DNA of 64,000 nt from a virus. Below, piece after piece: positions 5,401 to 50,937 of this stretch. Numbering within the stretch: position 1 is the first letter of the stretch; each line of letters opens with the position of its first letter. A program made the position numbers and the translations under genes. The stretch covers positions 7,611-71,610 of IMG/VR virus record IMGVR_UViG_3300025000_000084; one strand, given 5' to 3'. The notes under the pieces were generated by a model that was not told the origin of the DNA, did not search any database, and was given only the letters and a program-made list of their open reading frames with translations.

Positions 5401-8400
5401 GATCAGTGAGATCCGGCACCGATCCCTCCGGAAAGAAGTGGTCCATGCTTCTAAACAACTCCTATGGCTACTTCCGCAGGACCAAGGCAAAGGATGGTGA
5501 TCAGGTTGATGTGTTCTTGGGTGACAATCTCGCTGCACCGGATGTTTATATCGTTGACCAGGTGAACCCGGAGACCGGGACATTTGATGAACACAAGGTA
5601 ATGATGGGCTTTAACTCAGCCGAAGATGCCCGGGATAACTACCTTGCCAACTATGAACCGGGATGGAAAGGCATGGGATCCATCTCCAAGATGTCACTCG
5701 AAGGTTTCAAGAAGTGGTTGGGTAGTGGTACCAGGACCCGCAAGCCGGTTGACAGTAATGTGCCTGTCAAGGCCAAGGAAGAGCCAAAGGAAGCTGAATA
5801 CCCCAATCCAGAGATACCCCTTGAGGAAACCCTACCTAATGGCAGGGTAGTATATAACCAAGAAGGTGATAATGACCTTCAGGTTGTTGATACATACAAA
5901 AGAGTTGATGCCTTCAGAAAAAAACACAATACAATAGCATTGTGGCAGGCCAAAACAGGCGACGTGGTGCAGGATATATTTACAGGGGAGGTTTTCACAT
6001 TATCTAAGAAGGCCAGCGGCGGTATATCAAAACTGATTAGTGATGATGGTGTTGAGAAGAATATTAACAACAGCGATCCTCTCTTTATCAAGATTGAAAA
6101 GCCAACCAAGCAGCCAAAAGCAAAGAAGGCACCCGAACCAGCAGAGGATACCCGTCCGGTCAAGCAACTTACCAAGAAGAAAGGCTGGCCGATGTCAAAG
6201 GTTGATATAGCCAGACTCTCCCGGGAGCCGCAGTCATTTGAGGAGGCCGTATATCAATTCTTCATCAACAGAGGCCGCATATCAACAGCAAGACTCAAGC
6301 ACCACCTCGGCACCCGCAGCCGTAGCGATTACGCCTCATTCATCTGGGCTCACAAGAAAGACGGTCAGATGACCGACAAACTCAATGAGGCTCATATCTT
6401 CCAATCACACCCGGAGTTACTTACTCAAGTGGGTGACCAGCAGGACCAGGAGAGGGCATTCTTTGATATATTACTTTCAGTCACCGGCCTCAATGACATG
6501 AGGACCCGCATTGATGAGATGCAGAGTAAGGCTGACCATGCCACCGAGGACATGCCTCCACCGCCGGATGAAGATGCAGAAACAGCAGCACTGGATACCG
6601 GTCAGGTTATTACTGAAGAAATCCTGCCTTTAGTAGAGGGAGATCCAGATATTTTGCGTATATTTGAGGTCGAGATCAATGAGTTAGGTAAAACGCTCGA
6701 GGATCTTAAAGCACTTGCGGCCAGTGACCCTAATTATTTTCAAACGTTCCCCTACGGGCTCAATGAAAAGCAGTTTAACGAACTAAAAAGCATTCTCAAT
6801 GATACAGAAAGACAAAAGCAAATTAGTGGGCTGGCTGACCAGGTTGGTAACATTGAGAGCCGCAGCCAAGGGAACGACACCTTACCAGGAGTCCCTGTCA
6901 CTGAAAGCCGAGATGATGGAGAGGGCCGAGAAGAAGGAGTCCAGCCAACAGCCTCAGCAGAACCCGCAGAAGTAGCCAAGGCCCCCGAGTTTGCAGGGGA
7001 GCAGTTCAATATACCGGAAGAGACCCCGGAGCCCAAAACACAATCTGAGTTTGCGGGAGATTTTATCAAGAAACTCCCCGGGGATTTTCTTAAAGCCAGT
7101 GATGGATCTATTGATTTTGGATATATTAAGCCTGAAACAGGCCTAAAAGAGGCCCCTATAAGGCTTACTGTAGGTAACGATAGTCATGGACTGATTCATA
7201 TTGATAACCAGCACGGAGAGCAGATTAAGAAAGCAGGTTACAGAACCATCCAGGATTTCGTAGAGGAGGTTGCCAAGAATTATTCCGTTATTCGCTCCGG
7301 CTCGACCTATAACAATAAACCAACATATCTCTTAGAACTAACTGACGACAAGAACAGGACACTTATCGTAGAAATGTCCAAGAATGGGGAATATTGGAAC
7401 GTAAATTCGGCTGGGATATTCAGGAAGGAGTACTCAAAAAATAAAGAAGTTGTTTGGTCCTTACCCGCATTAGGAATCAAGCAGTCCGTTACTACTGATG
7501 AAGTTGCGTACCCGTCAGATGGCAAGAGCGGAGCTGACAAGGTTAGCGGGAACTCTCCACAAATAACTTCTTCTGAGGCCAAAGATACGAAAAAAATTGA
7601 TGAAAGTCAAGAGTCGCAGGAGAAAAAAACCGCGGAGTTCGCTGGGGAGATATTTGATAAGCCGGAGGAAACCGCTGAGATCATCAAACTCAGGGAGGAG
7701 AATACGGCCGCCAATGAGATAATAGAAAAGCGGATACAACGGCTAAGGGCTGAGAGGGATGCCAAGGAAGAGAGCCTTCAAAAGCGCAATGAACTATTTG
7801 GTGACCGCAAGGAGGAAGAGGAGAAGGCCGAGGGGATGCAGCCCATGTTCGCCGGTGATATCTTTAAGCCTACCTCCGAGAACCTTCAGACGGCACTCAA
7901 GCCATTCAATGATGGCATCAAGAAGGCAGAGGAGGAGATCGCTCGCAATAACCAGATCCTTGACGAGAAGATAGCCCTGGTACTCTCCGGGGCACAGATG
8001 ACCATTGACATGGAGGCGCCGGCTGAACCAGGTGAGAAGGCCGAGACTCCGAAGGAGGATGAACCGGATGCACTCAAGCTCGAGATGGTTGAATCAGTCA
8101 AACCCTCAGGTAAGATAGAGGATTTTGGAGAGAAGATATCGGGAGCAAAAAAAGAGATCCGTGGTCAGATTAAAAAGCATCTTGACACCACCAATGAGGA
8201 TATCCTCAATAATTCCATTTCGAAGACCCTGCCGCCGATTGACTATAAGCAGCTCATTGATAGTGGCGCCGCAACACGGGAGGAGGCAGCCTTCCTCCAG
8301 TATTTCCGCCACGAGATAGGCCCCAAGCCCAAGTCAACATACAAGCAACAGAGGTGGCTCCGTGGAGTGAATGCCTACAAGGATGTCCTGCGCTGGATAA

Positions 8401-11400: not shown

Positions 11401-14225
11401 TGCCGATACGCCGGTTTGAGGAAGAGGTGCTCCGCAGGGGTGGTAAGCAGGATAATAACTCCAAGCCCTACCGCGACATGAGCCTGTCATTCGGACGGCA
11501 GGAGAAGCTCTACAATGACTACTACGAGCAGAAGATGAAACCGGTCCTGGAGTCTGTGGCTGCCATCAAGCGATCAGGCATGCCCGGGGAAGAGGTGCTG
11601 CCCTATATCATTGCCAAACATGCCATGGAGCGTAACCCGATCTTCCGCGGCCGTGAGCTCAGGGAGTGGACCGATGCACAGGACGGTAATGTGTCATTGG
11701 ATGAGATTGACCAGAAGAAGGAGCAGCTCAAGGATAAGGACTACTCCGGGGTGATGGGCTTTGATACCACCGGCACATTCACCAACCCGGACCAGCTGGC
11801 CGCTGTAATAGTCAGCGAGTTTGAGGGTAAGATAGATAAGAAGCTCATCAATGACCTGTGGGATAATGTAAGGACCGCGACATCATCAATACTCGATACA
11901 TGGGAGAAAGGCAATCAGATATCCGCAGCCCAGAAGCAGGAGTACCTTGACCAGTTCCGTTACTTCGTTCCCCTTCGAGGATGGAGAGATGGGGCAGCCA
12001 AGGAGCTTGTCTATACCCGCGGAGATGGTTTCAGCGCATCGCTGCAACATGCACAGGGGAGAAAGTCACTTGCTGATAACCCGCTGGCATACCTCCTTAA
12101 TGTTGAGTTCCAGGCTATCGGTGAACAGGTGGATAATGAGGTCAAAAACTCCATGCTCAACCTGATCCTGCGCAATTTAGGCAATAACGAGATCCACGAC
12201 CTTGCTACTATCAAGAAGCTGTACTATGTGAAGATCACCCTTCCCGATGGAACCGAGGAGTGGGAGCCGACAATCATACGGCCCTCACAGGACTTGTTTG
12301 ACTCCGGTGCTGCCCGGACCAAGATATTCCGCGAGCATGAACGGTTGAGAAAACCAAGCCATGCCCGTGAGCATGAGGTGGTGGTCAGCAAGCCCGGAGG
12401 GGATATGGTCATCGTATTCAATGGCAAGCAGCTCTCAACAGCTCAGGCCATGAACCGGCAGAACTACATGTACCGGACCATCTTCGGTAACGTGTACGAT
12501 GCTCGGGACCTGAATAAGGTCATGGCGCTGATGGGACACCTCAATAATATGCTCAAGGCTCTTTACACCAGCTGGAACGTGGTATTCCCCTTTACCAACT
12601 TCATGCGTGACTTCCAGGAGGCCTCAATCACCCAGAGCATCAAATCACGGACAGGACTCAAGGTTGTCAGCGGATACCGGCAAGCATTCCCGGCAATCCT
12701 GCGTAGGATCCGCGGTAAGCAAGACCTCACCAATCCCATTGACCAGCAGCTTGAGGACTTCTATAACTACGGAGGTGCCACCGGTTACACCCACATGAAA
12801 ACACCGGATGAGATCGAAAAGGATATCAATAGCGAGATAGGACGCATGACCCGCAAGGGAACGGTAATAGGTGGAATCGGTGATGCCGGCCATACTATGC
12901 TCGAGGCAGTTGAGTCCTGGAATAAGATCTTCGAGGATGCCACCCGGTTCTCGGTCTATCTGTCATCTCTCTCCATTGGCAAGTCCAAGGAGGATGCCGC
13001 TTACGATGCAAAGGAGGCCTCGGTAAATTTCAATACTAAGGGCAAGGGATCAAAGGCATGGGACGCATGGCTCGCATTTTGGAATGTGGCCGTTCAATCC
13101 CTGCAGAAGAACTTTAAACTTGCCAAAGACTCACCCAAGCGATTTACACAGGTGGCAATGTCCTTTGTTATGCTCGGATTCTTGGAGGCTTTAATGAATG
13201 CCATGACCGATGATGATGACCCGGATAACTCATATTACAATCTCAACCCCTACATGAGGCAGAACTACCTGGTCATCCCTCTGCCAAACCTGAGAGATGG
13301 AGGCAAGGGCAACAAATATATCAGCATACCCCTGCCGCAGTTCTGGAGAGGCTTCAAGAGCGCCGGTACAATAGCCTTTGATGTGGCTACCGGTAAGATG
13401 AAGGCCAAAGAAGCCGTGGCAAGCGCCATCGGTAACTTTGCCGGAGGACTTCTGCCGGTTGATATCGGTGGTTTCTACAAGTCCGGAGAGTTCAGCTTTG
13501 CCCCGATTGTGCCGACTATCTTCAAACCGGGAGTGGAGCTGATGGAGAACCGCAATTACATGGGGTACACCATCAAGAAAGAGCCGTTCACCCGGGAGCA
13601 GGAGAAGTACCTGGCCGATGCCGGTCTTGGGAAGGATAACGTGAATCCGGGAATTAAATTTTTTACGGATTTATTATTCAGATGGGGCGGTGGGGATACT
13701 AAATATAAATATTACACAGATCGTCAGGGACGCACCCGTAAGGTATTCCTTGATATTAACCCATCGAGTGTGGAGCATCTATTCAAAGGGTATGCGGGGG
13801 GAACCGGAGGTGTATTTTCCGACTTAATCACCACTATCTCTCAAGTACTTGATCCCGGAGAAGAAGTTTCCTTCAAAAATACACCCTTCATTAACAAATT
13901 TTTGAGAGAAACGCCCGAACATAAGTGGCGAATAATTTCTGAGTACTATTCTCAAAAGGAGCAGCTGTCTAAAGAGCAGACGGTATTCAAAGAGTACATG
14001 AAGCAGGCAGAAGAAGGACAGGATTATACAAAGGCTGCCCGGATTTCAAATGATGAATACACACAAACCCTGTGGAGTGTTTTTGATAACTACGAGGATC
14101 AGATTAAGGACCTCAATAAGGATAAGACTAAAGACGATACGGAAACGACTGATTTAATTATTGAGCTCATGGACATGTGCTTACAGGATGTAGATCAGAT
14201 AAAAAGAAAGTATAATAAGAAATGA
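2490..14225 (+). CDS. Giant polyvalent virion/ejection protein (iPPase-like, PBECR-like nuclease, LPD5/LPD1/LPD23/LPD38-like and zincin domains)
   Basis: 3911 aa. ISIENPVGSVRSG...YGY...DGDQVDVF...FDEHKVMMGF (iPPase-like); HGLIHI...YWNVNSAG (PBECR-like); KIEDFGEKI (LPD5-like); GVQFGNY...AHEWFHAVD (LPD1 region); TGWQRGADGLWRYE (LPD23-like); HELQH...GEVEARNVQ; HEAIAH; LPD38-like C-terminus. Confidence 0.85.
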   Translation: MTEGNKPKKVLSTDDLLKRYNAQTPAKPVNAGKGLDPWGSELVDIDQLLGVAPQSRPVGEFKKTALPQSDEDLFQAWMAGEQDNDEYDYRGFYQSERAGGSLKPTINDYVKEDPNYHFYSIGVDGKVLKSPKHKTFDKTIAAEKALGNELYTDENGDLRTRKAQPPQGEQDDWINANREEWEAEWADKNIFEKIGTGIERGGKQLKGGMQKFGAEIMPKIGAIGERMSGGAYTADDIIDAMTPMRQKGEQKLDEAGAIQGKGLAFEFGTFIPQMAGTFAALAAAPFSGGTSASAIPGILGTANIGALTSSVVGSTLYEVEKYSEETGKEISEAKKWSVALLAGTAEFAAEKIRLDRFLPKGMTSKILTRTMKESPEVAESMMQQWAKARPAMYQKLLQLGKTTFRNSKEEGIEELWTQIAQDYANYLYQDPEDRMGFQQIMLNALNAAKGGAMMGGFIGPASYGSSQLTTNMMRKRKGGVSLVQTSDGKVYEALGQSKDGEIYVQNAVGKQSTISKKNVKDQVTLTNEQMKEYLDAYDQGSAALPELEARIANDPETQIRELGKKYTFLGYSEQEPQTNSIRFGELRDGRMVILTSVNEAENEDQMVYTAKDAENPEAAPFMVKGNDVINRKSVSYEEWVANELAQYQATKQQMDAMVTKAQAPVQEGETIPIGERLFNVTEVTDQGITLNEIDKDGNLTATTEVITPDKYGEVFGMPEDQGGQEGGQAGGQVEVAAQPAAEGGIQTDENQPQTGPVAATDQGIQTPQAQPEAIKSRKISDGSTEFTIMPEEDGSFRMQEVFDTQKKAESTLKKLTERYPKLTWEMQMVDSGDPFTPDEYVIKAAVKQAKKEAPAAPAEAPAPVAAPTIAETAQVEVEIEQKPTESEQKSEVVAQETPVEVQAEAPAQEEVEAQPAETVEVTPEEKAQTDLMRANREANTRPTEAQKEAGNYKKGHMKFAGFDISIENPVGSVRSGTDPSGKKWSMLLNNSYGYFRRTKAKDGDQVDVFLGDNLAAPDVYIVDQVNPETGTFDEHKVMMGFNSAEDARDNYLANYEPGWKGMGSISKMSLEGFKKWLGSGTRTRKPVDSNVPVKAKEEPKEAEYPNPEIPLEETLPNGRVVYNQEGDNDLQVVDTYKRVDAFRKKHNTIALWQAKTGDVVQDIFTGEVFTLSKKASGGISKLISDDGVEKNINNSDPLFIKIEKPTKQPKAKKAPEPAEDTRPVKQLTKKKGWPMSKVDIARLSREPQSFEEAVYQFFINRGRISTARLKHHLGTRSRSDYASFIWAHKKDGQMTDKLNEAHIFQSHPELLTQVGDQQDQERAFFDILLSVTGLNDMRTRIDEMQSKADHATEDMPPPPDEDAETAALDTGQVITEEILPLVEGDPDILRIFEVEINELGKTLEDLKALAASDPNYFQTFPYGLNEKQFNELKSILNDTERQKQISGLADQVGNIESRSQGNDTLPGVPVTESRDDGEGREEGVQPTASAEPAEVAKAPEFAGEQFNIPEETPEPKTQSEFAGDFIKKLPGDFLKASDGSIDFGYIKPETGLKEAPIRLTVGNDSHGLIHIDNQHGEQIKKAGYRTIQDFVEEVAKNYSVIRSGSTYNNKPTYLLELTDDKNRTLIVEMSKNGEYWNVNSAGIFRKEYSKNKEVVWSLPALGIKQSVTTDEVAYPSDGKSGADKVSGNSPQITSSEAKDTKKIDESQESQEKKTAEFAGEIFDKPEETAEIIKLREENTAANEIIEKRIQRLRAERDAKEESLQKRNELFGDRKEEEEKAEGMQPMFAGDIFKPTSENLQTALKPFNDGIKKAEEEIARNNQILDEKIALVLSGAQMTIDMEAPAEPGEKAETPKEDEPDALKLEMVESVKPSGKIEDFGEKISGAKKEIRGQIKKHLDTTNEDILNNSISKTLPPIDYKQLIDSGAATREEAAFLQYFRHEIGPKPKSTYKQQRWLRGVNAYKDVLRWITDKETFKAEHKGMTFMELMNDNMNDYAVQQMKEQVSLLLDLGFPEITSLKGYELRHFEARKTLNKDRQLVDMPAVFAITKGNMIVHKFDTREEAIAGLKYILTTDSEAPQKVKFDMWRERNKPGIFIGKKLAAGKFITLAQGFDKVSEASAYVKNHQEELERLLEEKKVIPYERPEERGPRVGKDYRGGDNITPEVFSETFGFRGVQFGNYVEQLRRQEDLNEAYDALVDLADVIGVPPRALSLSGQLGVAFGARGSGGKNAAAAHYEPHEIVINLTKGNGPGSFAHEWFHAVDSYFSRARGRKMEFITDRPRPLIKQDGSTDESIRPEVLEAFDGLVKAINQSKLPLRSRELDKRRSKDYWSTTIEMGARSFESYVRTRMADKETKNDYLVAFRDMVDYIVAAGGAEDAYPYPTEAELGPIGEAFDKLFQTISTKEEDGRTVMFRVIGERGATLNDVLIDNLATAKKMEPDHSPRAVFLATGWQRGADGLWRYETRDIELKKDIDFIGELKPQNEAFTEEIPLTEIVDDEELFNSYPQLKNVKLTFYNYGSYPELTNTGAFANFTQKIIAIGTKDMANVHKSQSTLLSRNSRSNTNDEAVDLFVYDRDSLRSVLSHELQHYIQRIEGFGEGGTLPGRGSVGQGDSKYQYSRLVGEVEARNVQRRLGSTPEVRRQTMLSETEDVARDQQIIIRNKYDNQENRGIVPKTPQPTGWNALSDLLEEDDRLDREAEVKTRINQLAKSLNTDVVIVQNRAALPTSLQGAAKRVGLWDFSTLYGIWDPNTDTMYVMMDDLMKSGPQNAIIEATKTVLHEAIAHKGLPAMLGTEEYIKLLDDIYDSIPKADRTTLENDYNTEDKRTIAHEYLGMMAEDNVNPNLFQRILAKIRELIRKFYKVDYTANDIHSLLRQSRKNLERGPEGQSGYYRSRPVAMDFEYAGEFMEASQASLRARKAAAANEPQFAGQYFGSPLETAAKAYAEKKAERTGKEVVQGIREYIQDMSLPIRRFEEEVLRRGGKQDNNSKPYRDMSLSFGRQEKLYNDYYEQKMKPVLESVAAIKRSGMPGEEVLPYIIAKHAMERNPIFRGRELREWTDAQDGNVSLDEIDQKKEQLKDKDYSGVMGFDTTGTFTNPDQLAAVIVSEFEGKIDKKLINDLWDNVRTATSSILDTWEKGNQISAAQKQEYLDQFRYFVPLRGWRDGAAKELVYTRGDGFSASLQHAQGRKSLADNPLAYLLNVEFQAIGEQVDNEVKNSMLNLILRNLGNNEIHDLATIKKLYYVKITLPDGTEEWEPTIIRPSQDLFDSGAARTKIFREHERLRKPSHAREHEVVVSKPGGDMVIVFNGKQLSTAQAMNRQNYMYRTIFGNVYDARDLNKVMALMGHLNNMLKALYTSWNVVFPFTNFMRDFQEASITQSIKSRTGLKVVSGYRQAFPAILRRIRGKQDLTNPIDQQLEDFYNYGGATGYTHMKTPDEIEKDINSEIGRMTRKGTVIGGIGDAGHTMLEAVESWNKIFEDATRFSVYLSSLSIGKSKEDAAYDAKEASVNFNTKGKGSKAWDAWLAFWNVAVQSLQKNFKLAKDSPKRFTQVAMSFVMLGFLEALMNAMTDDDDPDNSYYNLNPYMRQNYLVIPLPNLRDGGKGNKYISIPLPQFWRGFKSAGTIAFDVATGKMKAKEAVASAIGNFAGGLLPVDIGGFYKSGEFSFAPIVPTIFKPGVELMENRNYMGYTIKKEPFTREQEKYLADAGLGKDNVNPGIKFFTDLLFRWGGGDTKYKYYTDRQGRTRKVFLDINPSSVEHLFKGYAGGTGGVFSDLITTISQVLDPGEEVSFKNTPFINKFLRETPEHKWRIISEYYSQKEQLSKEQTVFKEYMKQAEEGQDYTKAARISNDEYTQTLWSVFDNYEDQIKDLNKDKTKDDTETTDLIIELMDMCLQDVDQIKRKYNKK

Positions 14226-45863: not shown

Positions 45864-46676
45864 ATGATACTCCTGTTCAACACCTCCGCGCACACATATG
45901 TGAACATCGCAGACTATTTGGAGAGCATTGAGATCTCTGACGGGGTAAACTACCGGCTGTTGCTGCTCTTCAATCTCGATGACATCTTCACGGACACCAA
46001 AAAGAGAACCGCATGGAGAGCCCGGAACGCCAGGGACGAGCAGGGCAAGCCCATGGTTGACAAGTTGGTCCTCACCGATGATGACCGGTCCATGTTTGAC
46101 GACCTTATCAAGAAGATATCAGCAGAGGCCTTCCGCAAGGCAAGCGCCTGGGCCAAGGGGATCCCGGGAGCATACCGGCACAATGTCAAGTTTGGGGATC
46201 CGCAAGCCTCCGGCACCATCGTCAGCGGAGTAACCGCGTCCCTGTTTACCACCCCGGCTCAGGTACTTACCACCAACGAGCTCGCCGGCATGAAGTTTGT
46301 CATCACCTCCCCGGGACTTTCGATGAACCAGGAGAGGACCATCGTGAGCAATACGGCAGATACCATCGTTGTGGACTCAGCCTTTGCAGCTGATGTGACG
46401 GGATTGGAGTTTGCCGTGATGACACAGACAGATGACTTTATTATCTTCTACCTGGATATGGCAAACACCTGGGACATCAATCAGCTTATGGCCGCAACAG
46501 AGGCTATCAGAGAGGCGCTGGTGACGGGCTTTGTTAAAGAGTGGTATTTGTATAACCGGTACATGGATGATGCCGGCATTGAGGCCGTGGCCTATGCTGA
46601 GAGCCTGGAGAACATCAAGTCATTACTGTCACAGAGAAACACCCCCTACCGGAGATCCGGAGAAATCTTTTCTTGA
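45864..46676 (+). CDS. Probable virion structural/adaptor protein
   Basis: Helical termini (IREALVTGFVKEWY) with an inserted beta module; last late gene before the terminator. Confidence 0.5.
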   Translation: MILLFNTSAHTYVNIADYLESIEISDGVNYRLLLLFNLDDIFTDTKKRTAWRARNARDEQGKPMVDKLVLTDDDRSMFDDLIKKISAEAFRKASAWAKGIPGAYRHNVKFGDPQASGTIVSGVTASLFTTPAQVLTTNELAGMKFVITSPGLSMNQERTIVSNTADTIVVDSAFAADVTGLEFAVMTQTDDFIIFYLDMANTWDINQLMAATEAIREALVTGFVKEWYLYNRYMDDAGIEAVAYAESLENIKSLLSQRNTPYRRSGEIFS

Positions 46677-46710
46677 AGTCTGTTTTCATAATATGTTTAT
46701 TGGTTCTAAA

Positions 46711-46786
46711 TGAGAAAACCCCGCCTGACAAACGGGGTTTTCAACACGCAACGAAATGAGTGACGCTAATCGAGCACATTCTGACA
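46711..46786 (-). ncRNA. Predicted small RNA (about 75 nt)
   Basis: Minus-strand TATATTTG (46797-46790) with TTTG 22 nt upstream, reading into the terminator hairpin; too short for a tracked ORF. Confidence 0.5.
46714..46742. terminator. Bidirectional terminator hairpin
   Basis: GAAAACCCCG-CCTGACAAA-CGGGGTTTTC. Confidence 0.8.
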
Positions 46787-46985
46787 CCACAAATATAACT
46801 ATTTTTGGCAATGGAGAGGCAAAAGTTTTGCACCGTCTTAGATAAAAATCCGGTCTAAATCTCTAACTTGCATGCTCCGATTATAGCTTCCCGGAGGGCT
46901 CTGGCGTAAGAGAATTGTTCGAGAATGAAAACCGCAAATCTCTGCAACAATCACAAATATAATTGAATACAGAGATGCGAGAGTA

Positions 46986-47033
46986 TGACTCTTAATCAGC
47001 GGGTCCAGGGTTCGAGTCCCTGCAGACCGACCA
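46986..47033 (+). mobile_element. attP core: 3' half of tRNA-Lys(CTT)
   Basis: TGA-CTCTTAA-TCAG anticodon arm, CAGGG-TTCGAGT-CCCTG T arm, CAGACCG-A-CCA; no 5' half or D arm; about 170 bp upstream of the integrase. Confidence 0.85.
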
Positions 47034-47034
47034 G

Positions 47035-47063
47035 GAGACTGACATAAACGCAGTCTCTTTTTT
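47035..47063 (+). terminator. Terminator after the tRNA fragment
   Basis: GAGACTG-ACATAAACG-CAGTCTC-TTTTTT. Confidence 0.8.
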
Positions 47064-47201
47064 ATTGTATCATAGTGAGTTACGGACTTGAGAAAAATAC
47101 ATGCTGCATACATGCCGCCTACTTTGTTTTACTTTGAAAAGCAAAATACACTACATTTGTTAGCGGAATTGTTCGAGAATTAAAATGAGCACACCTGACA
47201 A

Positions 47202-48464
47202 ATGGCAAAATTCAAGACCGTTATTCTCGCCTCCGAGAAGAGGCAGGATAAAAAAAGCAATGTTAAGATCCGGGTAACACATAACCGGTACGTCCGTTTT
47301 GTTGCTACCGAGTATCATGTACTGGAGAAATACTTTGACCATGACTCCGGGACCATCCTCCCCGGTGGAGGGTTTACAGCCGACCAGGCTGACCGGGCCA
47401 ACGGCAAGATACAAATGCTCATCGGAGATATGGTGCGAAAGACCGAGGCCCTACGGAACCTCCGCTTTATGGATATGCCATCGCTTATGACCATCCTCCG
47501 GGACAAACACCGCGAGCAGGACCTTTACGCCCTGGTTGACGAGAGGATAAGCCGGCATGACGGGGAAGGGAATTTCAACTATGCAAAATGCTTCCGGTCC
47601 ACCAAGGCCGTATTGAAGGCATACACCAGCGCCAGGGTGGTCCCGTTCACAACTATTGACGCGGAGTGGCTCAAACGATATGAGAGGTGGATGCGCACCC
47701 ACGGCATCAGAAAAGAGACAAAGGGTATGTCTGCAAATAGCATCGGGGTACACATGCGAAACATCCGGACCGTTTACCGGGAGGCTATGGATATCGGGCT
47801 GACTGATCGCGCGGCATACCCCTTCCACCGCTACCGGATCCCCAGGGAAGATACACGCAAGCGAAACCTCACGGCCGAAGAGATGCAGAAGATCATTCAC
47901 GTTAAGTTGAGCAACCCAACTATGGCCTGGTCTCGGGACATGTTTCTGTTGAGCTTCTATCTTATAGGTATTAACATGCGGGATCTGATGTTCCTAACCT
48001 CAGAGAACATTGACGAGGGCAGAGTATATTATAGAAGGAGTAAGGGCAAGCAGGACTACTCTATTAAGATCTTCCCCGTGGCCCAGGCAATCATTGACCG
48101 ATACCCGGGCCGAAAGTTTATCCTTGACACCATGGAGCGATACACCGACTACCGGACCGCTACCAGGCTGATCAATAAGAAGCTCAAGGCGATTGCCACG
48201 GACCTGAAGATCACCAAGCCCGTCACAATCTATTGGGCCCGGCATACCTGGGCTACCGTAGCAATAGGCAAAGAGGTAGGTGCATCAAGGGACGTTATAC
48301 GTTATGCCTTGGGGCATGGCATTGGTAGCCTGGTAACAGATATTTACATACAATTCGACCTGTCCCAAGTAGATGCGGTAAACCGAAAAGTAATTAAGTT
48401 GGTTCAGATGCAGCCTAAACAGCCTCGCGCCGGATCAGTCCCTTCACGCGAAACAAAGCAATGA
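47202..48464 (+). CDS. int: Tyrosine integrase (Bacteroidetes type)
   Basis: Arm-binding N-terminus VKIRVTHNR, SAM-like domain, GINMRDL, RSKG, YWARHTWAT, LGH, TDIY. Confidence 0.95.
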   Translation: MAKFKTVILASEKRQDKKSNVKIRVTHNRYVRFVATEYHVLEKYFDHDSGTILPGGGFTADQADRANGKIQMLIGDMVRKTEALRNLRFMDMPSLMTILRDKHREQDLYALVDERISRHDGEGNFNYAKCFRSTKAVLKAYTSARVVPFTTIDAEWLKRYERWMRTHGIRKETKGMSANSIGVHMRNIRTVYREAMDIGLTDRAAYPFHRYRIPREDTRKRNLTAEEMQKIIHVKLSNPTMAWSRDMFLLSFYLIGINMRDLMFLTSENIDEGRVYYRRSKGKQDYSIKIFPVAQAIIDRYPGRKFILDTMERYTDYRTATRLINKKLKAIATDLKITKPVTIYWARHTWATVAIGKEVGASRDVIRYALGHGIGSLVTDIYIQFDLSQVDAVNRKVIKLVQMQPKQPRAGSVPSRETKQ

Positions 48465-49056
48465 TCTCGTCCCGCCTCATCTCATAGTCCTCAAACCGGG
48501 GATTCTCAGCGCCCAGCTTTAACACTCCTTCTGAGGGAGAGCTTTTAATATAGCGGACCGATGGCTCGCTGCTGGTGCATATCATATAAGCCTCTCCGTA
48601 GGCAATCGGCTCTCCGGCCTTTACCTCCTTACAGATAACAACATCACCCGACACGATCCGCGGTGCCATGCTATCACCGAACACATCCACGGCCAGCTCG
48701 CAATCTGAGTAGCCATGGATACGCATGCGGTCAACTGGCTCTTTATCCTCTTTAACAAGATTTTTGGATGCGCAGAACTCCTTCCTATAATATACAGTCC
48801 AGAGGTCGCGGCTCATTATCTCATCCTTATCCAACATCTTCCCCTTACCCAGGATCAGCCATCGGGCAGACACCTCCGGGAACGCTTCAAGAATTAAACT
48901 CAGGATCTCAAACGAGGGGTACCTGTCCGGGTGGTTGGCAAGCCTGGTTATGGATGTGTTTGCGGTGAAACCGAGTCTCACCGAGAGGGAGTTTTTGTTG
49001 AGCCGATAATAATACATCAGCTCTTTTAGCCGATCAGCAAAGGTGTAGGTGCTCAT
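48415..49056 (-). CDS. CI-like repressor (HTH plus S24 peptidase)
   Basis: N-terminal HTH, VSARWLILGKG, VFGDSMAP, YIK. Confidence 0.9.
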   Translation of the reverse strand: MSTYTFADRLKELMYYYRLNKNSLSVRLGFTANTSITRLANHPDRYPSFEILSLILEAFPEVSARWLILGKGKMLDKDEIMSRDLWTVYYRKEFCASKNLVKEDKEPVDRMRIHGYSDCELAVDVFGDSMAPRIVSGDVVICKEVKAGEPIAYGEAYMICTSSEPSVRYIKSSPSEGVLKLGAENPRFEDYEMRRDEIIALFRVKGLIRREAV

Positions 49057-49133
49057 TTATAAATAGTTAAACAAAATCAAGTCAGGTCAAGGCGTCAATC
49101 GTGCCGTATCAAATGTTAAAGAATGTTAAAATA

Positions 49134-49199
49134 TTTGCAAATACAACAAATGTGCAGTATATTTGCTTCAACATCAACGTAAGGCACACGACAAAGTTA
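49134..49199. promoter_or_regulatory. Lysis/lysogeny switch promoters
   Basis: Rightward TTTG(49134)-N20-TATATTTG(49158-49165) is a full Bacteroidetes consensus; leftward TAACTTTG at 49199-49192 faces it. Confidence 0.7.
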
Positions 49200-49205
49200 A
49201 GTAAA

Positions 49206-49514
49206 ATGAGTGGATTGACAATGCAAAACGAGAAAAAACTTACTCCCCGGTTCGGGACCCTGACAATAGATGAACAGCTGGCGGCCTTTATCAATGGGCT
49301 TATTGACAAAAAAATAGAGGTGGTAATGGATAACATTTCGCCTCGCTTTGTCACCCGCAGCCAGGCTATGAAGGAGATAGGCCGCAAGGCTTATGAAGAG
49401 GGGATCCGCACCGGACTGCTCACCCCAATAGCCAACGCCGGCCGTAATGCCAAGATCCGGATACGCCGGAGGGAGTATGAGATGTATATAGACTCGCTGG
49501 CACTTCATCAATAA
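49206..49514 (+). CDS. Excisionase/Cro-like DNA-binding protein (start 49206 or 49221)
   Basis: First gene divergent from the repressor; FVTRSQAMKEIG...KIRIRRREY. Confidence 0.6.
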   Translation: MSGLTMQNEKKLTPRFGTLTIDEQLAAFINGLIDKKIEVVMDNISPRFVTRSQAMKEIGRKAYEEGIRTGLLTPIANAGRNAKIRIRRREYEMYIDSLALHQ

Positions 49515-49538
49515 TATAAACTAACACGCAACTGACAA

Positions 49539-49748
49539 ATGAAAAATGACAACAATGGTTGCTCCACCTGCCCCAAGGGCGAAGAGAGATATGAGAGAAA
49601 TAGCTATTTCCGCAGAGGGAGAACGGAAACTTACTATGAATACGACTACCGCCATACCAGTGGCGCTCTCTTTACCTGTGTTAAACCTTCCCTCGAAGAG
49701 TGCAGGGCAGCCAGGGATCGTGCAATAGCAAACGGAACCCTTAGCTGA
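49539..49748 (+). CDS. DUF3873-like protein
   Basis: NGCSTC..GEERYE...YDYRHTSGALFTCVKPSLEECR..RD. Confidence 0.8.
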   Translation: MKNDNNGCSTCPKGEERYERNSYFRRGRTETYYEYDYRHTSGALFTCVKPSLEECRAARDRAIANGTLS

Positions 49749-49755
49749 TCAGGCC

Positions 49756-49953
49756 ATGACAACAATTACAATTGGTAGCAGAGTAGAAAGAACCCAACCC
49801 GGCGATTATACAGATGGTCGCAGGGGAAATGTGGTTGACCTCGAGGGTGACAGGATAAGAGTCAAATGGGATATGCACCCAAATGGCGTAATGATGGCAC
49901 ACCCTATTCGTACATGGGTGAATATTAAGAGGCTGGTTAAGATAGGTCACTAA
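49756..49953 (+). CDS. Small SH3-like hypothetical protein
   Basis: IGSRVER...GNVVD...IRVKWD...RTWV. Confidence 0.6.
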   Translation: MTTITIGSRVERTQPGDYTDGRRGNVVDLEGDRIRVKWDMHPNGVMMAHPIRTWVNIKRLVKIGH

Positions 49954-49966
49954 ACACAACTGACAA

Positions 49967-50158
49967 ATGACCGCAACAGTAAAGTACAACATCGGCACCT
50001 ACGAGGGAACCATGACTGTGGGGTGCAAGCCTGAAGATACACCCGAGATCATCATATCCAAGGCCGCTGTAATCATGGGAATGGCCACCTATCCATTCTC
50101 TATCAGCCGGTGGACCCACAACTGGAGAGTAATATCAAGAACTGACAATAACAACTAA
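49967..50158 (+). CDS. Small hypothetical protein
   Basis: 63 aa, preceded by the repeated leader motif. Confidence 0.6.
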   Translation: MTATVKYNIGTYEGTMTVGCKPEDTPEIIISKAAVIMGMATYPFSISRWTHNWRVISRTDNNN

Positions 50159-50170
50159 CACACAACTGAC

Positions 50171-50452
50171 ATGAGCACAATTACAACGATTCAGGAAGCC
50201 ATTGAAGAAAGGGCAAAGATAAAACTTGACCGCGATATTGATAAGTTGACTGAGGCCTACTGGCAGTTTTTGAGGGACCAGGATCTTACCAGTAACATAT
50301 CCATCAAGATCATGGCAAAAGATGGTACTACATCACACCCCTATATTAGCCAGCTCTTTCAGGCCGAGGCTGTGCTGACTCAGATAAAGGAAAAATATCT
50401 GCCGTCATATATCAGAGCCGAGATCTCCGCTATCCTAAACAACCCCAAATAA
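50171..50452 (+). CDS. Hypothetical protein
   Basis: 93 aa, preceded by the repeated leader motif. Confidence 0.6.
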   Translation: MSTITTIQEAIEERAKIKLDRDIDKLTEAYWQFLRDQDLTSNISIKIMAKDGTTSHPYISQLFQAEAVLTQIKEKYLPSYIRAEISAILNNPK

Positions 50453-50554
50453 ATGAAACTCACCCAACACGCCCGTAACGAGATCATCAGCTGCATTGTT
50501 GTGGCTCTGATCTTCGCCCTAATTGTCTATGCAGGACTTAAACTCGATTGGTGA
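50453..50554 (+). CDS. 33-aa membrane peptide (not in the ORF track)
   Basis: MKLTQHARNEIISCIVVALIFALIVYAGLKLDW; abuts the upstream gene, TGATG overlap downstream. Confidence 0.55.
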   Translation: MKLTQHARNEIISCIVVALIFALIVYAGLKLDW

Positions 50555-50937
50555 TGGCAGAGCAACGAGAATACGTCCTTTACCGCGAGCTGGCGGCATA
50601 CCTTCGGCTGCAGTACCCGAAGGTCCGGTTTCACTACGACTATGCTGGACTTGCACACACCAAAGCCCAAGCTGGACAGATGAAGGCCATCCAGCACTCC
50701 AAGGGCTTCCCTGATCTGACAATCATCAATCCCAACGGAGGGATCCTCTTCCTGGAACTAAAGGCCGAGGGTAATAATGTTTTCAAGAAGAACGGGGAGC
50801 TGATCTCTGACGAGCATGTGACCGAGCAGGCCATGTGGCTGTACGCCCTTAGTAGCGCCGGCTTCTCTGCATATTTCGCTACCGGGTTTGATCAAGCGAA
50901 ATTTATTATAGACACATTCCTGACAAAGAAACAATGA
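50554..50937 (+). CDS. VRR-NUC-like PD-(D/E)xK nuclease / resolvase
   Basis: GFPDL...LFLELK...EQ..WL..L...GF. Confidence 0.85.
   Translation: MAEQREYVLYRELAAYLRLQYPKVRFHYDYAGLAHTKAQAGQMKAIQHSKGFPDLTIINPNGGILFLELKAEGNNVFKKNGELISDEHVTEQAMWLYALSSAGFSAYFATGFDQAKFIIDTFLTKKQ

What the first reader, a model, noticed from the sequence alone, without database searches (positions are those of the whole stretch)
46711..46823. Predicted sRNA beside attP complementary to the start regions of integrase and early genes
Seen: a leftward TAnnTTTG promoter reads about 75 nt into a terminator. The plus strand of this stretch holds three look-alikes of gene leaders. CCTGACAAA (the hairpin loop, 46724-46732) recurs exactly before int (47194-47202) and before the 50934 gene (50919-50927). 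AACACGCAAC..AAATG (46743-46758) matches the 49539 leader. GAGCACATTCTGACA (46772-46786) resembles GAGCACACCTGACA before int and CACATTCCTGACA at 50913. Inference: the minus-strand RNA could pair in trans and silence int and several early genes, adding an RNA layer to lysogeny control. Alternatively the plus strand is a decoy for a protein that binds the motif.
Basis: partly seen in the sequence, partly recalled or inferred. Interest (0 to 1): 0.75.

Follow-up and report, generated by a model that had tools for sequence, protein, structure and literature searches.

The report
Candidate phage small RNA beside attP
Between the last late gene and the integration site of a groundwater Bacteroidota phage sits what looks like a tiny leftward gene for a regulatory RNA that could pair with the start regions of the integrase and several early genes; related phages keep the same layout, but no transcript has been seen.

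Summary
Every look-alike is at the stated coordinates. A composite motif, CAC-N1-5-CTGACA, has 7 matches at 6 sites in the 71.6-kb phage. All are on the + strand: five at the starts of int, 49539, 49967, 50171 and 50934, and the sixth inside the finding (shuffles give 1.64 per strand).

The hairpin at 46714-46742 is a bidirectional terminator that follows the late operon. A TATATTTG box lies 48 nt to its right on the minus strand.

Six syntenic phages keep a hairpin with a T-rich tail on the minus strand. Four of the six have an exact minus-strand TAnnTTTG box 42-52 nt from it. In four of five testable phages, the + strand of this short body resembles that phage's own immunity or early gene start regions, with a different sequence in each phage (Fisher p = 0.0008).

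Best reading (about 0.5): a stand-alone RNA of about 78 nt that pairs in trans with start regions.

Weak points:
- No RNA data exist.
- The loop look-alike is predicted to be paired in the minus-strand RNA.
- The evidence from this phage alone is marginal (p about 0.03-0.04).
- The predicted targets in relatives include the repressor.

Earlier notes of this scan report similar layouts on other DNA.

The parts
46714..46742 (.). Bidirectional intrinsic-terminator hairpin just after the last late gene (stop codon ends at 46676). Arms are 46714-46723 and 46733-46742; the loop is 46724-46732 (CCTGACAAA on the + strand).
   Evidence: I2: 10-nt arms, 100% complementary. One search gives folds of both strands. 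The minus-strand tail is T-rich. A homologous hairpin stands after the orthologous late gene in L162, L163/G001, L011, L006 and G004.
46708..46785 (-). Candidate small RNA of about 78 nt. The start is inferred about 5 nt after the -7 box and the end after the U-rich tail. It has a 5' part of about 42 nt that is mostly unpaired, followed by the terminator hairpin.
   Evidence: MFE -23.5 kcal/mol, z -2.58; in the centroid only a small 3-bp stem (nt 11-21) forms in the 5' part. The ends are inferred, not observed. There is no Rfam match above chance.
46790..46797 (-). Bacteroidetes-type -7 promoter box TATATTTG on the minus strand, 48 nt from the hairpin.
   Evidence: An exact box at 42-52 nt from the hairpin is also present in G001, L011 and G004. 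L162 has CATCTTTG (7 of 8) at the aligned place. L006 has none.
46820..46823 (-). Possible -33 TTTG, 22 nt upstream of the -7 box. This spacing is one more than the 19-21 nt I recall as usual.
   Evidence: Read. Weak.
46743..46758 (+). Look-alike of the leader and start codon of gene 49539 (DUF3873): AACACGCAAC..AAATG. It also resembles the leader of 50171.
   Evidence: gapped score 22; 16 of 500 shuffles reach it. An orthologous relation exists in G001, where a 13-mer is shared with its DUF3873 leader.
46772..46786 (+). Look-alike of the int leader (47187-47200) and of the 50934 leader (50913-50925). It is the sixth site of the CAC-N1-5-CTGACA motif and lies within about 21 nt that L162 lacks.
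   Evidence: The insertion is seen by comparing and the alignment.
46724..46732 (+). Loop look-alike CCTGACAAA, also found before int and before gene 50934. It is displayed as a 9-nt loop only in + strand RNA.
   Evidence: The loops of the relatives do not share this resemblance.
47187..47204 (+). int leader and start codon (GAGCACACCTGACAAATG), a predicted target.
   Evidence: (ddG -14.1, rank 11 of 88).
49523..49541 (+). Leader and start codon of the DUF3873 gene, a predicted target.
   Evidence: ddG -18.0, rank 3 of 88.
49952..49969 (+). Leader and start codon of gene 49967, which carries the motif; the predicted pairing is weak.
   Evidence: ddG -8.0, rank 44 of 88.
50157..50173 (+). Leader and start codon of gene 50171, a predicted target.
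   Evidence: (ddG -15.9, rank 5 of 88).
50912..50936 (+). Leader and start codon of gene 50934, a predicted target.
   Evidence: (ddG -13.7, rank 12 of 88).
46756..46845 (+). 29-codon open frame behind the leader look-alike; probably not a gene.
   Evidence: hydrophilic peptide. At the same place G001 has ATG plus 2 codons before the stop, and L162 has ATG plus 5 codons.

Best explanation
The stretch holds two things.

(1) The hairpin at 46714-46742 is a two-way intrinsic terminator. It ends the rightward late operon and also stops leftward transcription.

(2) Between the hairpin and the P arm of attP lies a small stand-alone leftward gene. It has a sigma-ABfr-type -7 box (TATATTTG, 46797..46790), about 42 nt of mostly unstructured RNA, then the hairpin and a U-rich tail, giving an RNA of about 78 nt.

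Its 5' part is complementary to a phage-specific leader motif (ACAC..CAAC/CTGACA..AUG) that sits directly in front of the start codons of int and of early genes 49539, 50171 and 50934, and more weakly 49967 and 49206. The RNA would pair across the start-codon region and block translation initiation. Shine-Dalgarno-less Bacteroidetes mRNAs are known to be controlled this way by GibS and FopS.

Shown: the sequence elements, their strand bias, their excess over shuffles, and their conservation in layout.

Inferred: transcription, the RNA ends, pairing in vivo, and the direction of the effect (a brake on int and early genes, for example in the lysogen or against superinfection).
For: Motif: CAC-N1-5-CTGACA has 7 matches at 6 sites, all on the + strand, against 1.64 per strand in shuffles. 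Five sites are at gene starts and one is inside the finding.

Pairing in this phage:
- The cofold ddG of the putative RNA with the five leaders averages -13.9 kcal/mol. Versions with a shuffled 5' part give -7.3 +/- 2.0, and 0 of 200 reach the observed value.
- The five leaders score better than the other 83 start regions (one-sided rank-sum p = 0.0036). Their ranks are 3, 5, 11, 12 and 44 of 88.

Layout in relatives:
- All six syntenic phages have a hairpin right after the orthologous late gene, with 4-7 T in the 10 nt after it on the minus strand. On the + strand the counts are 0, 4, 5, 0, 1 and 0.
- An exact minus-strand TAnnTTTG box lies 48, 52, 42 and 45 nt from the hairpin in 4 of the 6. 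At the measured intergenic rate of about 0.001 per nt per strand, the chance of at least 4 of 6 is 0.0002-0.0013.

Strand-specific resemblance to each phage's own start regions:
- Shuffles reaching the observed score: ours 16 of 500, G001 3 of 500, G004 9 of 500, L011 38 of 500, L006 350 of 500. Fisher combined p = 0.0008.
- The reverse complement scores lower in all five.
- The matched words differ between phages: AACACGCAAC here, and ACAAACACAACGA in G001.

G001 in detail:
- The 10-mer AACACAACGA occurs only 4 times in 67 kb. Three copies are in the leaders of the repressor, gene 11654 and the DUF3873 gene; the fourth is next to the -7 box.
- G001's predicted RNA has its DUF3873 leader as the best of 74 start regions.

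Other points:
- The folds show an open 5' part plus a terminator in ours, G001, L162 and L011. FopS has this same architecture (passages of PMC11697453).
- The + strand frame is not conserved.
Against: - No RNA evidence of any kind (see Tried and rejected).
- TAnnTTTG is not enriched in the window (36 found, 35.5 expected), and the -33 element is at best off-spacing.
- The simple scan listed neither the promoter nor the terminator.
- By plain duplex energy the five leaders rank only 8, 11, 30, 31 and 64 of 88. By cofold the best target is the unrelated gene 53884.
- The loop look-alike is predicted to be paired in the minus-strand RNA, leaving a 3-nt loop, and it is not conserved in relatives.
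- On this phage alone the resemblance is marginal (21 of 500; 16 of 500).
- L006 shows neither a box nor a resemblance. L162 has a 7-of-8 box, and its early region is not in the record.
- The relatives are kin, so the counts are not independent.
- In G001 the start inferred from the box would leave out the anti-AUG part.
- The resemblance reaches the repressor start region in G001 (secondary match), L011 and G004, which does not fit a simple pro-lysogeny role.
- The choice of the five leaders was post hoc.
Confidence: 0.5

Rival explanations
1. The element works in sense, on the + strand. The leader motif is a recognition site for a protein or for the ribosome (a translation enhancer or operator of Shine-Dalgarno-less mRNAs). 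The copies beside the terminator are either extra binding sites, such as a decoy displayed in the 9-nt loop at the 3' end of the late mRNA, or worn gene starts left by lost genes or by recombination at leader sequences.
For: - All copies are in mRNA sense and sit directly before start codons.
- Each look-alike beside the hairpin is followed by ATG in ours, G001, L162 and G004.
- Only the + strand RNA shows CCUGACAAA as an open 9-nt loop.
- The core AACAC-N0-2-AAC is shared by early leaders of two phages whose proteins are about 50-65% identical, as expected of a motif with its own function.
- C/A-rich unstructured leaders fit what is known of Bacteroidetes translation (passage of PMC7366714).
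Against: - The look-alikes at 46743-46786 lie behind the terminator, with no + strand promoter between them, so + strand RNA there needs read-through.
- The open frames after the ATG are 29, 2, 5 and 1 codons and are unrelated.
- A neutral remnant should not stay identical to its own phage's leader while differing between phages.
- This reading explains neither the conserved minus-strand box at a fixed 42-52 nt nor the minus-only U tails in L011, L006 and G004.
Confidence: 0.22
2. There is nothing beyond a two-way terminator and the P-arm side of attP. On this reading the TATATTTG words are binding sites for recombination accessory proteins, or chance, and the look-alikes come from the C/A-rich make-up of intergenic DNA.
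For: - CACAAATATAA occurs twice (46788 and 46952), on either side of an arm-type repeat.
- TAnnTTTG is at chance level overall.
- Significance in this phage is only 0.03-0.04, and L006 and L011 are not significant.
- Exact 9- to 13-mers shared with random places in the genome are common.
- A minus-strand terminator could simply shield the late genes from host read-in at the prophage end.
Against: - The composite motif is restricted to six + strand sites.
- A 13-mer in G001 is reached by 0 of 500 shuffles, and the combined p is 0.0008.
- The box-to-hairpin spacing is fixed in 4 of 6 phages.
- Sense scores exceed reverse-complement scores in all five phages.
Confidence: 0.2
3. It is a cis-antisense pair of the type I toxin-antitoxin kind. 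The 29-codon + strand frame (46756-46845) would be a small toxin, and the minus-strand RNA would silence it.
For: - A leader-like sequence plus ATG is overlapped by the putative antisense RNA.
Against: - The peptide is hydrophilic and has no membrane segment.
- The frame shrinks to 2 and 5 codons after the ATG in G001 and L162.
- No + strand promoter lies between the terminator and the ATG.
Confidence: 0.03

Closest known systems
FopS and GibS small RNAs of Bacteroides thetaiotaomicron (passages of PMC11697453, and PMC7366714)
   Same: - Same phylum-type signals: a sigma-ABfr -7 box.
- Similar size: 65-70 nt for FopS against about 78 nt here.
[quoted passage not shown]
- Pairing with translation initiation regions of Shine-Dalgarno-less mRNAs, often the first gene of a polycistron.
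   Different: - No sequence or structure match. Rfam, which should hold FopS, gives nothing at gathering score, and the only hit at E up to 1 is an unrelated leader at E = 0.33.
- It is encoded by a phage, next to attP.
- The predicted targets are the phage's own int and early genes, not host glycan-use loci.
- The seed word changes from phage to phage.
c4 RNA of phages P1 and P7 (passage of review PMC12197685; processing details recalled)
   Same: A phage antisense RNA acts in trans on short complementary words at the ribosome-loading region of phage mRNA. The words differ between related phages and so set specificity.
   Different: - c4 is cut out of the leader of the very operon it controls and has one target (icd-ant).
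- Here the unit stands alone with its own promoter and terminator, kilobases from its predicted targets, and there are several of them.
- No antirepressor is involved at this locus.
CI immunity RNA of satellite phage P4
   Same: A small phage RNA is complementary to repeated sites in the early transcript and acts as an RNA layer of immunity.
   Different: - P4 CI causes premature termination and replaces a protein repressor.
- This phage has an S24 CI-like repressor, and the predicted sites are start regions.
sar RNA of P22 and OOP RNA of lambda (passages of PMC12197685)
   Same: Short promoter-to-terminator phage RNAs of 68-77 nt that hold down a lysis-lysogeny gene by pairing.
   Different: Both are cis-encoded, overlapping their single target on the opposite strand. 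Here the pairing would be in trans and multi-target.

Membership tests
Rho-independent (intrinsic) terminator | G+C-rich hairpin | tested here: met
   Arms are 10 nt and 100% complementary, with a CCCCG/CGGGG core. Compensatory stem changes across relatives are seen (2 of 7 consensus pairs keep the pair with both sides changed).
Rho-independent (intrinsic) terminator | U-rich tract directly after the stem on the transcribed strand | tested here: met
   Minus strand: UUUUC closes the stem and is followed by UCAUUU (4 T in the next 10 nt). + strand: only the UUUUC itself. All six relatives have 4-7 T of 10 on the minus strand. The simple scan did not list it.
Bacteroidetes sigma-ABfr promoter | -7 box TAnnTTTG | tested here: met
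   TATATTTG at 46797..46790. The same word serves as the likely early promoter at 49158 and upstream of int in relatives. The consensus is taken from a passage of PMC7366714.
Bacteroidetes sigma-ABfr promoter | -33 TTTG at the usual distance | tested here: inconclusive
   TTTG at 46823..46820 leaves a 22-nt spacer. The usual 19-21 nt is recalled. [quoted passage not shown]
Bacteroidetes sigma-ABfr promoter | Mapped transcription start | not testable with these tools
   No RNA run is listed for this DNA.
Trans-acting base-pairing small RNA | Own promoter and terminator, with no conserved open frame | tested here: met
   The frames are not conserved.
Trans-acting base-pairing small RNA | Accessible seed complementary to targets above background | tested here: met
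   0 of 200 shuffles reach the observed ddG. The 5' part is mostly open. But the leader ranks are 3-44 of 88, and the loop seed is closed.
Trans-acting base-pairing small RNA | Seed and target change together in relatives | tested here: inconclusive
   Matches specific to each phage appear in 4 of 5 phages (Fisher p = 0.0008). These are word-level matches among kin, not base-pair covariation on an alignment.
Trans-acting base-pairing small RNA | A transcript exists | not testable with these tools
   (DNA contigs only).
FopS family (Rfam model) | Match to the family's covariance model | tested here: not met
   No match at gathering score. At E up to 1 the only match is RF01772 at E = 0.33.
P1 c4 / P4 CI immunity RNAs | RNA processed from the leader of the operon it controls | tested here: not met
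   The unit lies at 46708-46797, about 400 nt from the int start and 2.4-4.2 kb from the early genes, on the other strand.
Type I toxin-antitoxin | Conserved small hydrophobic toxin frame overlapped by the antisense RNA | tested here: not met
   The peptide is hydrophilic, and the frames in G001 and L162 are 2 and 5 codons after the ATG.
Lambda sib-type retroregulation | Site downstream of int, across attP, read as part of the int transcript | tested here: not met
   The element lies upstream of int, and the int promoter box (47152-47159) is between them.

The most novel reading that the evidence does not exclude
A clade of temperate Bacteroidota phages carries an 'address-coded' small RNA gene at the junction of the late operon and attP. 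Its seed co-evolves with a phage-specific word placed in front of the start codons of int, early genes and, in some members, the repressor. That would add an RNA arm to the lysis-lysogeny switch, one that sets immunity specificity in a phylum without Shine-Dalgarno sequences or Hfq. Because the gene lies across attP from int, it is next to int only in the circular form and sits at the far end of the prophage.
Probability: 0.25. Interest if true: 0.8.

Novelty: new variant of a known kind. Interest (0 to 1): 0.55.

Why it matters
RNA control of phage development is well studied in enterobacterial phages. I found no case for Bacteroidota phages in my three literature searches (listings and passages only). 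Bacteroidota translate without Shine-Dalgarno sequences and lack Hfq, so how a phage there tunes many cistrons at once is open.

If this reading is right, the candidate gives a compact, testable system:
- an RNA of about 78 nt;
- five or six start regions sharing one word;
- natural variants in related phages that carry a different word.

It would also show how to find such genes by layout: a -7 box 42-52 nt from a hairpin after the last late gene. Earlier notes of this scan describe similar promoter-to-terminator units beside integrase modules of unrelated phages, so the layout may be widespread.

Tried and rejected
RNA evidence. The look-up of sequencing runs listed 17 runs, none on record as RNA ('no RNA holder listed'). 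Read laying on X2, X5, X7 and X9 gave DNA contigs only. One 253-nt contig of X9 covers 46491-46737 with 16 other letters and 5 gaps and stops inside the hairpin, so it says nothing on the RNA body. The other pieces at 46986-47035 are tRNA genes of other organisms.

Close relatives.
- Single-protein scans of viral contigs with int and with the late protein found none.
- The exact 19-mer leader found none.
- The phages collection gave only the tRNA-like core.
- A degenerate hairpin pattern gave 120 loci, and 0 of 120 encode a relative of the late gene, int or two neighbouring genes.
- The int alignment in viral contigs gave only G001 as a near relative.
- G002 (L162) lacks int, DUF3873 and the early region.
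- G004's early region was not found, and a 14-mer pattern search there was uninformative (67 matches against 37 for the control).

Methods that led nowhere.
- RNAduplex energies were dominated by long interior loops, so I moved to cofold.
- cofold cannot score loop-loop pairing, so the loop seed was judged from the fold alone.
- The unbiased list of shared 9-mers was mostly chance.

Caveats on my own counts.
- Gene starts come from a crude longest-ORF call. Between 46700 and 51208 I replaced them by a hand list.
- In G001 I dropped one ORF across the att core and moved one start from 11591 to 11654.
- In one search three start windows were off: ours 50454 and G004 7921 by one base, and L011 7762 by about 30 nt. 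The best L011 match lies in that window. By it falls about 6 to 24 nt after the repressor's ATG (7794..7792).
- The shuffles changed only the first 42 nt.
- The five leaders were chosen after seeing the motif.

Readings rejected: + strand 29-codon gene, type I toxin-antitoxin, sib-like site, FopS member (see Membership tests).

Papers. I saw passages only of PMC7366714, PMC12197685 and PMC11697453, plus the listings. P4 CI and the processing of c4 are recalled. Supplementary files were not opened. Supplementary Table S1 of PMC12197685 (38 phage sRNAs without a described function) and the FopS target tables could bear on novelty.
Full report
Setting. The window is bases 7611-71610 of a 71,610-base virus record with direct terminal repeats. 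A 144,519-base metagenome contig holds the integrase twice, 71,569 bases apart, which is two genome lengths head to tail. DNA runs that hold the stretch are groundwater metagenomes.

Around the finding lie the following:
- the last gene of a long rightward late block (45864-46676);
- an integrase (47202-48464; PF13102 and PF00589);
- a leftward S24 CI-like repressor (48415-49056);
- a rightward row of small early genes, among them a DUF3873 protein at 49539 and a VRR-NUC nuclease.

No tRNA gene and no Rfam family is found. Positions 46985-47031 are the 3' part of a tRNA and match att sites of other phages and tRNA genes of the community. So this is attP of a temperate phage with Bacteroidetes-type signals.

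The observation.
- The loop word CCTGACAAA occurs 4 times against 0.62 expected.
- AACACGCAAC plus AAATG matches the 49539 leader.
- The third look-alike needs one indel, so the ungapped search misses it.

The underlying pattern is that early leaders share a word. CTGACA occurs 23 times on the + strand and 3 times on the minus strand of the window, and 11 of the 23 lie in 46725-50920. The composite CAC-N1-5-CTGACA has 7 matches at 6 sites in the whole genome, all on the + strand. They lie before the ATG of int, 49539, 49967, 50171 and 50934, and once at 46775 in the finding (shuffles give 1.64 per strand, at most 6).

Against all 7150 genome windows of the same length, the finding shares 8-mers and 9-mers with gene start regions at the 1.6-3.2% level. 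Its longest common word with the 13 immunity and early start regions is 10 nt, which 21 of 500 shuffles reach.

Anatomy. The hairpin (arms 46714-46723 and 46733-46742) stands 38 nt after the late gene's stop codon. Its A-run and T-run pair with each other, as in two-way terminators. The consensus scan missed it, and it also missed the tRNA-side terminator at 47033-47065. Both have 9-nt loops, outside the scan's range of 3-8.

On the minus strand a TATATTTG box lies 48 nt from the hairpin. A TTTG lies 22 nt further upstream. An RNA starting about 5 nt after the box would be about 78 nt long. Its first 42 nt or so are mostly open, and the hairpin follows.

In that RNA the loop closes to 3 nt through G-U pairs, whereas the + strand RNA keeps CCUGACAAA as an open 9-nt loop.

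The 29-codon + strand frame behind the leader look-alike encodes a hydrophilic peptide.

Relatives. Distant integrase relatives (45-58% identical) show a -7 box and two tandem direct repeats just before int, different in each phage. The same repeat recurs left of the core. In this phage these are GAATTGTTCGAGAAT at 46912 and 47166. These are likely arm-type sites, and they fix the P arm to the right of the finding.

Six phages share the order late gene, hairpin, short spacer, P arm, tRNA-like core, int and repressor. They are this one, L162 (late protein 61% identical), L163/G001 (late protein 48%, int 51%), L011, L006, and a prophage in a Rikenellaceae genome, G004, whose two ends are L373 and L082. 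L013 has no hairpin or spacer, and L007 has other genes there.

In all six the 10 nt after the hairpin on the minus strand hold 4-7 T. On the + strand the counts are 0, 4, 5, 0, 1 and 0. So in L011, L006 and G004 the hairpin can only stop leftward transcription.

An exact minus-strand TAnnTTTG lies 48, 52, 42 and 45 nt from the hairpin in this phage, G001, L011 and G004. L162 has CATCTTTG at the aligned place, and L006 has none. With the measured intergenic box rate of about 0.001 per nt per strand, at least 4 of 6 has a chance of 0.0002-0.0013. The phages are kin, however, and the box is probably inherited, so this argues for conservation rather than independent recurrence.

Does the body match each phage's own leaders? 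In G001 the word AACACAACGA occurs four times in 67 kb:
- before the ATG of the DUF3873 gene (65% identical to ours);
- before the ATG of gene 11654;
- in the repressor's leader on the other strand;
- two bases from the minus-strand box beside the hairpin.

All copies are in mRNA sense. The copy beside the hairpin shares a 13-mer with the DUF3873 leader, which 0 of 500 shuffles reach.

In this phage the corresponding word is AACACGCAAC in both places, so the two phages differ by a two-base indel that is the same within each phage.

Gapped comparison of the putative RNA body with each phage's own start regions gave these numbers of shuffles reaching the observed score:
- this phage: 16 of 500;
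- G001: 3 of 500;
- G004: 9 of 500 (best match is the repressor leader);
- L011: 38 of 500 (best match is about 6 to 24 nt after the repressor's ATG);
- L006: 350 of 500.

The reverse complement scored lower in all five. Fisher's combination gives p = 0.0008.

The stretch that carries GAGCACATTCTGACA in this phage is about 21 nt that L162 lacks at the aligned place. It looks as if a second anti-leader module had been added in the phage whose leaders carry CTGACA.

The ATG after the look-alike is kept, but the frames are 29, 2, 5 and 1 codons. A + strand gene is therefore unlikely.

Pairing. With cofold, the putative RNA binds the five motif leaders with ddG -14.1, -18.0, -8.0, -15.9 and -13.7 kcal/mol. 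All 88 start regions average -8.5 +/- 4.2. The ranks are 11, 3, 44, 5 and 12, and the best target is the unrelated gene 53884.

Shuffling the first 42 nt gives -7.3 +/- 2.0 for the five, and 0 of 200 shuffles reach the observed -13.9. The one-sided rank-sum p is 0.0036. Plain duplex energies do not favour them (ranks 8-64).

G001's putative RNA has an open 5' end of 9-12 nt. Its best target of 74 is the DUF3873 leader (-15.5 against a mean of -6.3 +/- 3.1), gene 11654 is third, and the repressor is 30th.

Cognate pairs are somewhat better than cross pairs: -13.9 against -10.8 for this phage's RNA, and -11.5 against -8.4 for G001's. These means are computed by hand from the values.

Reading. 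The most economical account of the conserved box, the fixed spacing, the minus-strand U tails, the open 5' part and the strand-specific, phage-specific resemblance to start regions is a small leftward RNA that pairs in trans with start regions of immunity-region and early mRNAs. This is the architecture and mode of action shown for FopS and GibS in Bacteroides: a sigma-ABfr promoter, a single-stranded 5' seed, a terminator, and binding to translation initiation regions (passages of PMC11697453, and PMC7366714). The candidate is not a member of that family.

As a phage device it is closest in idea to P1 c4 and P4 CI (and recall). Unlike them it is a stand-alone unit far from its targets.

I put about 0.5 on this reading. 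About 0.22 goes to a sense-strand role of the motif (protein or ribosome site, decoy, or worn starts), about 0.2 to terminator plus att arm with chance look-alikes, and about 0.03 to a toxin-antitoxin pair.

The biological direction is open. In this phage the predicted targets are int and early genes. In L011 and G004 the best match is the repressor's start region, and G001 has a weaker match there.

Earlier notes of this scan describe promoter-to-terminator mini-transcripts beside integrase modules and start-region-complementary sRNA candidates in other phages. They are unchecked leads. They gave me the FopS comparison and the toxin-antitoxin rival, which I tested here. I did not test their own claims.

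Noticed in passing
46912-46926 and 47166-47180; also L006, L011, L013, L163, L082: Likely arm-type integrase sites. GAATTGTTCGAGAAT occurs on both sides of the tRNA-like core. The right copy sits in tandem with GTTAGCGGAATT, between the int -7 box (TACATTTG, 47152-47159) and the int ATG. Integrase relatives all show a -7 box plus two tandem repeats before int, with a different repeat in each phage, and the same repeat left of the core.
   Followed up: partly
46985-47065: The attP core is the 3' part of a tRNA (no full tRNA gene). It is followed by a + strand terminator hairpin at 47033-47065 with six T, which would serve the rebuilt tRNA gene after integration. G004 shows the integrated form with a full tRNA at the int end and the duplicated 3' part at the late-gene end.
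   Followed up: partly
48415-48464: int and the S24 repressor gene converge and overlap by 50 nt, leaving no room for a terminator between them.
   Followed up: no
49523-50173; G001 (L163/L165): The leader core AACAC-N0-2-AAC, placed right after the upstream stop codon, is shared by early genes of this phage (49539, 49967, 50171) and of G001 (gene 11654, the DUF3873 gene and the repressor). The proteins are only about 50-65% identical. L011 has its own repeated leader, CTCGAA(T/A)ATCTGAAACGATG, at two neighbouring genes.
   Followed up: partly
46790-46807 and 46952-46962: Back-to-back -7 boxes: minus-strand TATATTTG and + strand TATTTTTG, 2 nt apart. A second copy of CACAAATATAA (a minus-strand TATATTTG box) lies between the P-arm repeat and the core.
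   Followed up: no
47185-47187, 49056 (minus strand), 50171: AAATGAGCAC is shared by the int leader (an out-of-frame upstream ATG 17 nt before the int ATG) and the repressor start. Gene 50171 also starts ATGAGCAC.
   Followed up: no
whole record; L002/L003: A 144,519-base metagenome contig carries the integrase twice, 71,569 bases apart. This is a head-to-tail double genome, either a concatemer or an assembly artefact.
   Followed up: no
46491-46737: A run from another study holds a contig about 93% identical to this stretch, with a G inserted in the A-run of the hairpin's left arm, beside contigs identical to the window elsewhere. A close variant of the phage therefore exists.
   Followed up: no
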